Positions 17,745 through 18,777 of a stretch of DNA of 40,904 nucleotides are shown here, in pieces. The position numbers were made by a program, and so were the translations under genes. Positions within the stretch are counted from its first letter, which is position 1; every line of letters starts with the position of its first letter. The notes below the pieces were generated by a model, which did no database searches, was not told the origin of the DNA, and worked only from the letters and a program-made list of their open reading frames with translations. This DNA is from a virus (lineage: Duplodnaviria; Heunggongvirae; Uroviricota; Caudoviricetes), in IMG/VR virus record IMGVR_UViG_2687453163_000002, positions 1 through 40,904 of that record. One strand, written 5' to 3'.

Positions 17745-17987
17745 ATGGCAGAGATTACCCCCATGACTGAAGAACAGAAATTCCAGTTAGAGATTTATAA
17801 ACTGGTCATGAACCAGAACGCAGCCGCAGAGGAAGCATTTCAGTTCATTGGCACTGACGAACTGAAGCTTGAGCTATTCAAAATTCACTTCCAGTCAGGC
17901 GGCGCTAATTCAGATATCACGACCCGCACTATCGAAGCGGTGCGTAAATCGAAGGAAGCGTTAGACCTGTTCACTGCTGGAGAATAA
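17745..17987 (+). CDS. hypothetical small protein (80 aa)
   Basis: ORF with RBS ACGGAG; first of three tightly spaced genes upstream of terS. Confidence 0.5.
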   Translation: MAEITPMTEEQKFQLEIYKLVMNQNAAAEEAFQFIGTDELKLELFKIHFQSGGANSDITTRTIEAVRKSKEALDLFTAGE

Positions 17988-17989
17988 CC

Positions 17990-18277
17990 ATGGAACAACA
18001 AGAATTACCTCGCTGGCAGTGTCACAAGCAGGTATGGGCGTTAAAGATTCGACATATCGACCACAAACCAAACCCAGACCTTTCTGGCGTGTCGGGCGCA
18101 TCAAGCTATGGGGCCACCATTCACCCGGAAGATGGCACATACGCGCCATTCGATGTAAGCCCTGAGTACGTTAACAAACATCAACCGGTCGCTGGCGGGT
18201 ATTACGTTGTGTATGAGGATGGCTATGCATCCTTCTCTCCTGCTGACTCGTTTGAATCCGGGTACACGAAAATCTGA
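17990..18277 (+). CDS. hypothetical protein (95 aa)
   Basis: Starts 2 nt after the previous stop; no family recognised. Confidence 0.5.
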   Translation: MEQQELPRWQCHKQVWALKIRHIDHKPNPDLSGVSGASSYGATIHPEDGTYAPFDVSPEYVNKHQPVAGGYYVVYEDGYASFSPADSFESGYTKI

Positions 18278-18288
18278 CGGAGCCTCTG

Positions 18289-18777
18289 ATGACTACAGTC
18301 GCATGGGATGGAAAGACACTGGCATCTGACACCCAGGCATCAACTGGCAGTGTCGTTTGCTCCCTTTCTGAACAGAAGATATACACCCCGCCAGAGTCAG
18401 GTTGGGAGATTTACGGAAGCAAAGTCCTTGCCTTCGGTTGCTCTGGTGACTGCGGCGCAGAGATGGAATTACAGGATCTGCTTAAGCACAACCTCACGTA
18501 TGCCTCCGAGTTCCTGCCGACATTCTCCTTCACGGCTCTGGCTATCATCGGTGCTGGGCGAGCATACATCATCACCAAAGAGAAAGGCGAAACGCGGGCG
18601 AGCATATCGCTACAGGTTGAGCCATACGCAATAGGCAGTGGCGACCTGATCGCGCGCACTGCCATGCACTGTGGCAAAAATGCGAGAGAAGCGGTACAAG
18701 TCGCAATTGATCTTGACTGCTATTCCGGCGGCAGCGTTGATTCGTTCCCCGCTGGGAAGCAAACAGAAGGGAAATAA
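18289..18777 (+). CDS. HslV/proteasome beta-subunit-like Ntn hydrolase
   Basis: 162-aa ORF starting MTT (Thr after Met as in HslV); segments ASDTQASTGSVV, KVLAFGCSGDCGAEMEL and YAIGSGDLIARTA align by eye to HslV GDGQATLGNTV, KVIAGFAGGTADAFTLF and IAIGSGGPYAQAA. Confidence 0.6.
   Translation: MTTVAWDGKTLASDTQASTGSVVCSLSEQKIYTPPESGWEIYGSKVLAFGCSGDCGAEMELQDLLKHNLTYASEFLPTFSFTALAIIGAGRAYIITKEKGETRASISLQVEPYAIGSGDLIARTAMHCGKNAREAVQVAIDLDCYSGGSVDSFPAGKQTEGK

What the first reader, a model, noticed from the sequence alone, without database searches (positions are those of the whole stretch)
17745..18777. Three-gene module with an HslV/proteasome-like hydrolase between the lysis cassette and terS
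The ORF at 18289-18777 begins MTT, placing a Thr directly after the initiator Met as in Ntn-hydrolase HslV, and carries three segments that align by eye to HslV (GSVV, KVLAFGCSGDCG, YAIGSGDLIAR). It is preceded by two small ORFs (80 and 95 aa) separated by only 2 and 11 nt, so the three look co-translated. None of them belongs to the canonical P22/Sf6 late operon, and they sit in a slot where lambdoid phages carry accessory genes. A stand-alone phage HslV-like protease could act with host HslU or modulate a host or phage protein; the function is not evident.
Basis: partly seen in the sequence, partly recalled or inferred. Interest (0 to 1): 0.72.

Follow-up and report, generated by a model that had tools for sequence, protein, structure and literature searches.

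The report
Phage proteasome-like protease beside terminase
A defective P22-like prophage carries a small proteasome/HslV-like threonine protease of the already described but experimentally untested 'PPH' phage family, placed in a variable accessory-gene slot before the DNA-packaging genes; the two small genes in front of it are independent passengers, not partners.

Summary

The 'three-gene module' does not hold. The 80-aa ORF is P22 Orf80 (DUF2560), in 898 of 5,426 E. coli genomes against 10 for PPH and 0 for the 95-aa gene. The 95-aa ORF is a stalk-less homologue of the phage L Dec OB domain. No conserved partner of PPH was found in any lineage.

The genes lie in the variable slot between the lysis genes and terS. 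In relatives this slot carries Dec, Tad2-like, Acb2/Tad1-like, Rha and homing-endonuclease genes. The function of PPH is untested. Most likely it is a late-expressed, HslU-independent oligomeric protease with a specific target. It is a known kind, of moderate interest.

The parts
18289..18777 (+). PPH-family proteasome/HslV-like N-terminal-threonine hydrolase, 162 aa. Proposed catalytic residues: Thr2 (Thr1 after Met removal), Asp14, Lys30, Gly53, Ser117, Asp143, Ser146-Gly147. It has a clade-specific insertion of about 10 residues at 34-47 and no helix H2.
17990..18277 (+). Stand-alone Dec-type OB-fold domain protein, 95 aa. It is related to the capsid-binding domain of the phage L decoration protein but lacks the C-terminal trimerising stalk.
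17745..17987 (+). DUF2560 protein, the homologue of P22 Orf80 and HK620 HkbM, 80 aa. It is a widely conserved late-region gene of P22-like phages with unknown function.
   Evidence: Pfam PF10834 at E 1e-43. 96% identical to P22-pbi Orf80. Present in 898 of 5,426 E. coli genomes.
18783..19208 (+). Sf6-type small terminase subunit. It marks the downstream border of the variable slot.
   Evidence: Pfam PF20901 at E 7e-44 and phrog_1482 at E 3e-66.
17011..17496 (+). GIY-YIG/T5orf172-type putative homing endonuclease, another passenger of the same slot. Its GC content is 0.39 against 0.47 for the window.
   Evidence: Pfam MUG113 at E 4e-13 and T5orf172 at E 1e-9. RefSeq calls the epsilon34 homologue 'GIY-YIG nuclease family protein'. 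GC content.
16840..16859 (+). Terminator-like hairpin with a T-run after the Rz gene. The genes downstream of it would need the Q-modified late transcript.
   Evidence: Consensus scan. This is a pattern match only.
14469..14987 (+). Q-type late antiterminator. It is the presumed driver of transcription through the lysis genes, the slot and the terminase genes.
   Evidence: Pfam Phage_antitermQ at E 1e-25.

Best explanation
The 162-aa gene encodes a member of the PPH family, the phage-borne minimal homologues of the proteasome beta subunit and HslV. It is one of several independent accessory genes in the hypervariable slot between the lysis cassette and terS of a P22-like (Sf6-terminase-type) prophage. 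It is not part of a three-gene machine.

Proposed mechanism:
1. The gene is transcribed only late. It lies on the Q-antiterminated late transcript that also carries the lysis and packaging genes (inferred from position and from the lack of a promoter match).
2. Host methionine aminopeptidase removes Met1, because Thr is a permitted second residue. This exposes Thr as the N-terminal nucleophile without any propeptide, as in E. coli HslV (established knowledge applied to the sequence).
3. Thr1, Asp17-equivalent D14 and Lys33-equivalent K30, with oxyanion Gly53 and the Ser117/Asp143/Ser146 network, hydrolyse peptide bonds (active-site conservation shown; activity inferred).
4. The enzyme probably works as a homo-oligomer and without an AAA+ partner, because it lacks helix H2 (inferred).
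5. It cleaves a specific host or phage protein late in infection. The target is unknown.

The gene is dispensable for virion assembly. The 95-aa gene is a stalk-less Dec-like OB-domain protein inserted between P22 orf80 (DUF2560) and the PPH gene in this lineage only. DUF2560 is a general P22-like gene.
For: Identity and fold:
- phrog_1040.
- The family profile hits only 20S-beta and HslV chains in the PDB.
- AF2 pLDDT 93.9.
- Foldseek probability 1.0 to 20S beta and BPH.

Active site in 148 representatives, one per 50%-identity cluster:
- Met1 99%, Thr2 95% (plus 4% Ser).
- D14 98%, K30 99%, G53 99%.
- G116/S117/G118 99/90/99%.
- D143 90%, G147 95%.
- D14 and K30 align with Asp17 and Lys33 of 20S beta and HslV.

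PPH features from PMC8665760:
- No propeptide.
- No H2: helices only at 57-66, 119-127 and 132-142. The Gly-to-GSG spacing is 62 against 77 in HslV.
- Phage or prophage context.

Accessory, independent cassettes:
- PPH is in 10, DUF2560 in 898 and the 95-aa gene in 0 of 5,426 E. coli genomes.
- Only 1 of 267 phage records with a relative is close.
- The order and content of the slot vary.
- No homology exists among the proteins that precede PPH in other lineages.

Late, lytic-cycle role:
- Same strand as Q, holin, endolysin, Rz, terS and terL.
- No sigma-70-like promoter match on the + strand in 16500-19400.
- Relatives occur in strictly lytic phages. In Jerseyvirus wksl3 the gene sits directly upstream of holin-holin-endolysin. 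Jumbo phages also carry it.
Against: - No experiment exists for any PPH member, so activity, oligomeric state and target are all inferred.
- Related minimal homologues (Anbu) are, to my knowledge, not active on standard peptide substrates in vitro, so conserved catalytic residues do not guarantee general protease activity.
- The same catalytic set supports ligation in connectase.
- The absence of a promoter rests on a simple consensus scan.
- Membership in PPH was tested by features only, not by direct comparison with the published PPH reference sequence (WP_042125023.1), which I could not obtain.
- At 162 aa the protein is longer than the ~140 aa quoted for PPH. The difference comes from a 10-residue insertion after Lys30 and a short disordered tail.
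Confidence: 0.6

Rival explanations
1. Counter-defence or host-takeover protease. PPH is an accessory late protease that destroys a host immune effector or sensor, or another host protein, to protect the late stage of infection.
For: In related prophages the same slot carries recognised anti-defence domains. Tad2-like PF11195 (E 1e-25) is in L007, L009 and L014. Acb2/Tad1-hairpin PF24729 (E 2e-16) is in L003 (directly upstream of PPH), L012, L039 and L070. PPH has a patchy, accessory distribution. It is retained in strictly lytic phages.
Against: This is guilt by association only. The slot also carries Dec, Rha/KilAC-like regulators and homing endonucleases. PADLOC gave no match. No paper links the family to anti-defence. 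No target is known.
Confidence: 0.22
2. One reading: a stand-alone HslV that docks onto host HslU and forms a hybrid ATP-dependent protease.
Confidence: 0.08
3. Morphogenetic protease. PPH processes head, scaffold or decoration proteins during capsid assembly.
For: It lies next to terS/terL in most closer relatives: 32 of 76 loci have a terminase-type gene 1-2 genes downstream. It lies between terL and portal in the 27-32% identity group, and next to virion structural genes in others. It neighbours Dec-type genes.
Against: P22-like capsids mature without proteolysis (established knowledge: the scaffold exits intact). The gene is absent from P22, Sf6, HK620 and nearly all P22-like phage records. 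It is in only 10 of 5,426 E. coli genomes, while DUF2560 is in 898.
Confidence: 0.07
4. Not a protease. It is either a connectase-like sequence-specific protein ligase/transpeptidase or a catalytically silent scaffold.
For: Connectase uses the same Thr1/Asp/Lys fold (PMC8665760). The window protein has an insertion at the S3/S4 site, which is where connectase carries its specificity element.
Confidence: 0.05

Closest known systems
[quoted passage not shown]
   Same: A compact proteasome-beta-like core with the Thr1/Asp17/Lys33/Gly47 equivalents. No propeptide, no helix H2 and no C-terminal S12/H5. Encoded by tailed phages and prophages of Proteobacteria. A 99.4%-identical protein in phage Dewey already carries the PHROGs label.
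   Different: It is 162 aa rather than ~140. It belongs to the subgroup with a ~10-residue insertion between Lys30 and the oxyanion Gly (55 of 148 representatives have it). The exhaustive search found far more relatives than the 324 nr90 sequences listed in 2021: 4,968 clusters at 50% identity with E <= 1e-10. That count may include sister clusters such as RPC, AAH or CPH. I made no direct comparison with the published reference sequence.
HslV (ClpQ), the peptidase of the bacterial HslUV protease
   Different: 29% identity and hhalign probability only 70%. No Pfam or NCBIfam hit. Lacks H2 (about 15 residues shorter between the oxyanion Gly and GSG). Lys28 is replaced by Ser. No hslU partner gene. 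It sits in a phage late-region context.
BPH (Betaproteobacteria proteasome homologue; PDB 5ovs)
   Different: BPH keeps H2 and has a long acidic pore loop (PMC8665760). It is cellular, not phage-borne.
Phage L decoration protein Dec (PDB 6e3c), for the 95-aa ORF
   Different: It lacks the C-terminal stalk entirely. It belongs to a large family of stand-alone ~95-aa proteins that are also found fused to Tad2-like or crAss001_48 domains. Capsid binding is untested.
P22 Orf80 / HK620 HkbM (Pfam DUF2560), for the 80-aa ORF
   Same: 96-97% identical and in the same position upstream of terS.
   Different: Nothing notable, except that the last residues differ (…FTAGE against …FTTGA) at the junction with the inserted 95-aa gene.

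Membership tests
PPH (Fuchs et al. 2021) | Proteasome-beta-like beta-sandwich core | tested here: met
PPH (Fuchs et al. 2021) | Catalytic triad Thr1/Asp17/Lys33 plus oxyanion Gly47 | tested here: met
   T2, D14, K30 and G53 are invariant in A1 and 95-99% conserved in 148 representatives. D14 and K30 align to Asp17 and Lys33.
PPH (Fuchs et al. 2021) | No propeptide; the nucleophile directly follows the initiator Met | tested here: met
   The protein starts MTT. 141 of 150 representatives start M-T and 6 start M-S.
PPH (Fuchs et al. 2021) | Lacks the second helix (H2) | tested here: met
   DSSP shows helices only at 57-66, 119-127 and 132-142. About 16 residues of the HslV H2 region are unmatched in hhalign. 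Gly-to-GSG spacing is 62 against 77 in HslV.
PPH (Fuchs et al. 2021) | Compact (~140 aa), without the C-terminal S12/H5 elements | tested here: met
   The last strand ends at residue 154 and residues 159-162 are disordered. The 162-aa length is explained by the 10-residue insertion at 34-47. The family length mode is 140-159 aa.
PPH (Fuchs et al. 2021) | Encoded by tailed phages and prophages | tested here: met
   The window is a P22-like prophage. There are 174 confirmed IMG/VR matches (80 loci kept) and 267 phage records.
PPH (Fuchs et al. 2021) | Sequence clusters with the published PPH set (reference WP_042125023.1) | not tested
   The reference sequence and the Mendeley alignments were not available through the tools.
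HslV (ClpQ) | Matches curated HslV/proteasome sequence models | tested here: not met
   No Pfam family at E <= 1. NCBIfam gave only an archaeal proteasome-beta model at E 0.014 and 15 bits, against a cut-off of 224. hhalign to E. coli HslV gives probability 70%.
HslV (ClpQ) | Encoded with, and activated by, the AAA+ partner HslU | tested here: not met
   No hslU-like gene is in the neighbourhood. In K-12, hslV and hslU are adjacent. Use of the host's HslU is not testable with these tools.
HslV (ClpQ) | Helix H2 and Lys28 of the HslU-tail pocket (the role of Lys28 is from my own recollection of the HslUV structures) | tested here: not met
   H2 is absent. Lys28 aligns with Ser25, which is Ser/Thr/Ala in the family.
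HslV (ClpQ) | Dodecamer of two hexameric rings | not testable with these tools
   Only monomer prediction is available.
20S proteasome beta subunit | Propeptide and a partner alpha subunit | tested here: not met
   No propeptide. No second proteasome-like gene is in the window. The PHROGs scan covered only the five ORFs from 17011 to 19208 and found one HslV-like match.
Connectase | No H1/H2 pair; a two-helix insertion between S3 and S4 | tested here: not met
Phage L Dec decoration protein (95-aa ORF) | OB-fold capsid-binding domain | tested here: met
Phage L Dec decoration protein (95-aa ORF) | C-terminal trimerising stalk | tested here: not met
   The protein ends at residue 95, right after the OB domain. 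It matches phrog_11049 positions 1-94 of 182. Long relatives do have tails.
Phage L Dec decoration protein (95-aa ORF) | Binds mature capsids | not testable with these tools
   This needs virion proteomics or cryo-EM.
DUF2560 / P22 Orf80 (80-aa ORF) | Pfam PF10834 above the gathering score | tested here: met
   147.9 bits against a cut-off of 25. 96% identical to P22 Orf80.

The most novel reading that the evidence does not exclude
PPH is a self-contained, ATPase-independent viral 'mini-proteasome'. It assembles into rings (hetero-oligomeric in jumbo phages, which carry 2-3 tandem paralogs with partly degenerate active sites). It is deployed late in infection to destroy a specific host protein, most plausibly an immune effector or sensor. 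That would make it a new class of enzymatic counter-defence, carried in the same anti-defence hot spot as the Tad2- and Acb2/Tad1-like sponges.
Probability: 0.15. Interest if true: 0.75.

Novelty: new member of a known kind. Interest (0 to 1): 0.4.

Why it matters
[quoted passage not shown] This locus adds three practical points.

- A cultured coliphage, Dewey, carries a 99.4%-identical gene, so a knockout is feasible in E. coli.
- The family is very large and its active site is strictly conserved, so it almost certainly has an enzymatic role in lytic growth.
- In P22-like phages it sits in a slot that also carries known anti-defence genes and the Dec decoration gene. This gives testable hypotheses for its target.

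If it proved to be a counter-defence or host-remodelling protease, it would add a proteasome-type enzyme to the phage arsenal. If not, the finding is a routine accessory gene of a known family.

Tried and rejected
1. Three-gene module: rejected. Evidence is the co-occurrence in 81 loci and the E. coli prevalence of 898, 0 and 10 genomes.
2. A conserved small partner protein preceding PPH in all lineages: rejected. DUF2560 against c24, c129, c34, c82, c50, c113 and c71 gave hhalign probabilities of 0.1%, and c24 against c129 gave 0.2%.
3. Phage L orf129 or P22 orf59c as divergent PPH: rejected. orf129 gave hhalign probability 0.2% and both proteins fall in other PHROGs.
4. A Tad2-like remnant in the window (a 52-aa ORF clustering with c35): an artefact. 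An over-extended ORF call in L009 shares upstream non-coding sequence.
5. A defence-system component: no PADLOC hit for the three proteins.
6. Structured RNA in the region: Rfam found only three tRNAs in the window.
7. DUF2560 against the PDB by sequence: nothing significant.
8. The 95-aa profile against the PDB by sequence: nothing at E <= 1. The link to Dec needed fold and profile comparison.
9. Literature on a phage HslV-like function, on the role of HslV Lys28, and on any link to anti-defence: nothing usable in the held library.
10. Multimer or HslU-complex prediction was not possible, because only monomer prediction of window-derived sequences is offered.

Full report
**1. Observation**

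The three ORFs exist exactly as described: 17745-17987 (80 aa), 17990-18277 (95 aa) and 18289-18777 (162 aa, starting MTT). All are on the + strand, with spacers of 2 and 11 nt, and terS starts 5 nt after the third. Each is preceded by a GGAG motif 7-11 nt upstream (read). All three have many conserved homologues, so they are genes and not chance ORFs.

The window is a P22-like prophage:
- Integrase next to tRNA-Thr(CGT).
- Q antiterminator at 14469-14987.
- Holin, endolysin and Rz at 15449-16666.
- Sf6-type terS and terL.
- P22-type portal.
- Tailspike with the P22 head-binding domain.
- gtrA and gtrB homologues, with a third ORF that had no Pfam hit where gtrC would be expected.

**2. The 162-aa protein**

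Pfam and NCBIfam give no significant hit. PHROGs places it in phrog_1040, 'peptidase HslV family', at E 7e-35.

Sequence evidence:
- An alignment of 24 homologues (A1) has these invariant columns: M1, T2, D14, K30, G53, G116, G118, D143 and G147. S117 and S146 are nearly invariant.
- A profile of A1 hits only 20S-beta and HslV chains in the PDB, with E from 1.7e-4 to about 0.07.
- The printed alignments put D14 on Asp17, K30 on Lys33, the GSG block on the Ser129 block, and D143/S146/G147 on Asp166/Ser169/Gly170.

Structure evidence:
- The AlphaFold2 model is confident: pLDDT 93.9, pTM 0.88.
- Foldseek returns 20S beta subunits and BPH at probability 1.0.

**3. Which family**

The protein is not an HslV orthologue.
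- hhalign of A1 against E. coli K-12 HslV gives probability 70%, E 4e-5 and 29% identity. About 16 HslV residues in the H2 region have no counterpart.
- DSSP finds only three helices: 57-66, 119-127 and 132-142.
- There are 62 residues between the oxyanion Gly and the GSG motif, against 77 in HslV.

[quoted passage not shown] They describe about 140 residues, no propeptide, no H2 and no S12/H5. [quoted passage not shown] Their description is purely computational, and I found no follow-up. Phage Dewey (PQ850600) carries the same three genes at 98.7% nucleotide identity and already annotates 'peptidase HslV family protein'. I could not compare directly with the PPH reference sequence, so membership rests on features.

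**4. Size of the family and conservation**

An exhaustive profile search of 1.84 billion cluster representatives found 9,880 clusters at E <= 1e-3 and 4,968 at E <= 1e-10. Nearly all of the best 150 are 140-190 aa and match from residue 1. In 148 of these representatives the most conserved columns are the catalytic ones:
- Met1 99%, Thr2 95% (plus 4% Ser).
- D14 98%, K30 99%, G53 99%.
- G116/S117/G118 99/90/99%.
- D143 90%, G147 95%.

This argues strongly for a conserved enzymatic activity.

The spacing between Lys30 and Gly53 is bimodal: 12-13 residues in 46 of 148 (HslV has 11) and 21-23 residues in 55 of 148. The window protein has 22, so it belongs to the subgroup with a ~10-residue insertion at the S3/S4 site.

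**5. The two small genes**

The 80-aa protein is Pfam DUF2560 at E 1e-43. It is 96% identical to P22 Orf80 and 97.5% identical to HK620 HkbM and epsilon34 gp69. Phage L has a 46%-identical version inside orf118. So it does belong to the standard P22-like late region.

The 95-aa protein has no Pfam hit and matches phrog_11049 positions 1-94 of 182.
- Its family has 2,075 hits. The listed best hits are mostly 90-110 aa and stand-alone. Mean column identity is 57% across Enterobacteria, Burkholderia and a Bacteroidota MAG.
- Its model (pLDDT 79.6) is a small, mainly beta domain.
- hhalign of the family against the Dec OB domain gives probability 83% and E 9e-6.
- Longer relatives of 150-203 aa in L020, L022, L033 and L040 have the same domain plus Ala/Thr/Gly-rich or collagen-like tails. 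The L020 protein matches Dec at E 5e-32 and phrog_3018 'head decoration protein'.

The window's protein is therefore a stalk-less Dec-type OB domain. The same domain also occurs fused to Tad2-like and crAss001_48 domains.

**6. Is it a module?**

No.
- In 81 loci the 95-aa gene accompanies PPH only in L001, L002 and L013, which are essentially identical to the window.
- DUF2560 lies directly upstream of PPH in about 20 enterobacterial loci, with a 1-nt spacer in E. coli CP062855. It lies two genes upstream in four loci. It lies downstream in L025, L033 and L036. It is absent from most loci where PPH is below about 65% identical.
- In 5,426 complete E. coli genomes DUF2560 is in 898, PPH in 10 (all at 80-90% nucleotide identity) and the 95-aa gene in none.
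- The small proteins that precede PPH in other lineages are unrelated to DUF2560 and to each other. hhalign probability is 0.1% for c24, c129, c34 and c82 against DUF2560, and 0.2% for c24 against c129.

The contents of the slot between orf80 and terS differ between phages:

| Phage | Genes between orf80 (DUF2560) and terS |
|---|---|
| P22 | orf59c |
| Phage L | orf129 + dec |
| HK620 | hkbN |
| This window | Dec-like OB + PPH |

In this lineage the 95-aa gene looks like an insertion between orf80 and PPH. The orf80 C-terminus changes at the junction, from …FTTGA to …FTAGE.

**7. Context and likely role**

The stretch from Rz to terS is a hypervariable accessory slot. In PPH-bearing relatives it also carries:
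- Tad2-like genes (PF11195).
- Acb2/Tad1-hairpin genes (PF24729), directly upstream of PPH in L003.
- DUF1737 genes.
- Rha/KilAC-like regulators.
- Dec homologues.
- GIY-YIG or HNH endonucleases.

In the window the GIY-YIG/T5orf172 gene at 17011-17496 has GC 0.39 against 0.47 for the window overall.

PPH lies next to packaging genes across very different phages. It is upstream of at least four unrelated terS/terL types. It lies between terL and portal in the 27-32% identity group. It lies next to virion structural genes in others. In the lytic Jerseyvirus wksl3 it sits directly upstream of holin-holin-endolysin. It is also in SPN3US-like and Erwinia jumbo phages and in phage EL.

In the window all these genes are on the strand of Q, the lysis genes and the terminase genes. 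A terminator-like hairpin follows Rz at 16840-16859. No sigma-70-like promoter was found on the + strand in 16500-19400. I infer that expression is late only, from the Q-antiterminated transcript.

**8. Mechanism (shown against inferred)**

Shown:
- The fold.
- A complete and conserved Thr/Asp/Lys/Gly/Ser/Asp network.
- No propeptide.
- No H2.
- An accessory distribution.
- A position in the late region.

Inferred:
- Met1 is removed by host methionine aminopeptidase. Thr is a permitted penultimate residue, and E. coli HslV uses the same route.
- Thr1 then acts as the nucleophile.
- The enzyme works as an oligomer without an AAA+ partner. Tandem paralogs in jumbo phages hint at oligomers. All paralogs keep the M-T/S start and the Asp, and nine of ten distinct paralogs keep the Lys. 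Some have lost the Asp166 or Ser169-Gly170 equivalents, and one has lost the Ser129 equivalent, as inactive eukaryotic beta subunits have.
- It cleaves a specific target late in infection.

A morphogenetic role is unlikely because P22-type capsids mature without proteolysis and almost all P22-like phages lack the gene. HslU dependence is disfavoured by the missing H2 and by Ser in place of Lys28, but it is not excluded. A counter-defence role is suggested only by neighbourhood.

**9. Verdict**

The 'module' and the HslU idea are not supported. The thing is a member of a family that is already named but uncharacterised, and an almost identical gene is already annotated in GenBank. I rate it a new member of a known kind, with moderate interest. 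The interest comes mainly from the fact that the function of PPH is an open question, and phage Dewey offers a tractable system to answer it.

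Noticed in passing
window 21501-22831: A 1,331-bp IS3-family element interrupts the P22-type portal gene. It has rve and HTH_Tnp_1 transposase ORFs on the minus strand and a 5-bp target duplication. Its size and duplication fit IS2 (IS2 properties from my own knowledge). The portal is split into halves at 20655-21587 and 22804-24081, matching Pfam P22_portal positions 2-261 and 260-594. IMG/VR loci L002 and L013 are 100% identical on both sides and lack the insertion. 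The prophage in this window is therefore probably unable to make virions.
   Followed up: yes
L003, L007, L009, L012, L014, L039, L070 (genes 1-3 positions upstream of the PPH gene): The slot between Rz and terS of related prophages carries Tad2-like (PF11195) and Acb2/Tad1-hairpin (PF24729) genes. In P22-like phages this slot therefore appears to act as an anti-defence/accessory hot spot.
   Followed up: partly
L049 4001-5954; L050/L078 (two genes each); L052 4001-5209; L054/L055 3081-5124: Jumbo-phage contigs of 126-234 kb carry 2-3 tandem PPH paralogs. All keep the M-T/S start and the Asp17 equivalent, and nine of ten distinct paralogs keep the Lys33 equivalent. Several have lost the Asp166 or Ser169-Gly170 equivalents and one has lost the Ser129 equivalent. 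Most share a C-terminal 'PPKPxVxSxRP' motif. This pattern suggests hetero-oligomeric assemblies. A DUF7484 gene and a phrog_2921 gene lie next to them on the other strand.
   Followed up: partly
window 17497-17744: A ~250-bp non-coding block upstream of orf80/DUF2560 is conserved at 92-98% nucleotide identity in many of the P22-like and other lambdoid phage records listed. Megablast hits typically start at window ~17495-17517. The block contains a minus-strand terminator-like hairpin at 17606-17585. Phage Dewey annotates two tiny CDSs there. Its function is unknown.
   Followed up: no
window 15051-15125 and 15131-15206; 115-190: Phage-borne tRNA-Asn(GTT) and tRNA-Thr(TGT) lie between Q and the holin gene. 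Phage L has tRNA-Asn and tRNA-Leu at the same place. A bacterial tRNA-Thr(CGT) sits next to the integrase, which is the likely attachment site.
   Followed up: no
window 17011-17496: A GIY-YIG/T5orf172 (MUG113) gene has GC 0.39 against 0.47 for the window. It is likely a homing endonuclease that invaded the slot. It gives a weak PADLOC match to PDC-S57 at E 4e-4.
   Followed up: no
L085 4495-4920 (E. coli CP062855, WP_194153723.1): RefSeq/PGAP names the gene directly upstream of terL, at the position of the Sf6-type small terminase, 'ubiquitin carboxyl-hydrolase'. This looks like a mis-annotation, and it sits right next to the proteasome-like gene.
   Followed up: no
family-wide (against PMC8665760 Table 1): The PPH-like family is far larger than published. 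The search found 4,968 clusters at 50% identity with E <= 1e-10, against 324 nr90 sequences in 2021. About a third of the representatives sampled (55 of 148) carry a ~10-residue insertion at the S3/S4 site. That is the site where connectase has its specificity lid.
   Followed up: partly
window 17990-18277 and relatives: The stand-alone ~95-aa Dec-type OB domain family is unusually well conserved, with 22 invariant columns across Enterobacteria, Burkholderia and Bacteroidota. It also occurs as the N-terminal domain of Tad2-like (DUF2829) and crAss001_48 fusion proteins. Its role may therefore not be capsid decoration.
   Followed up: partly
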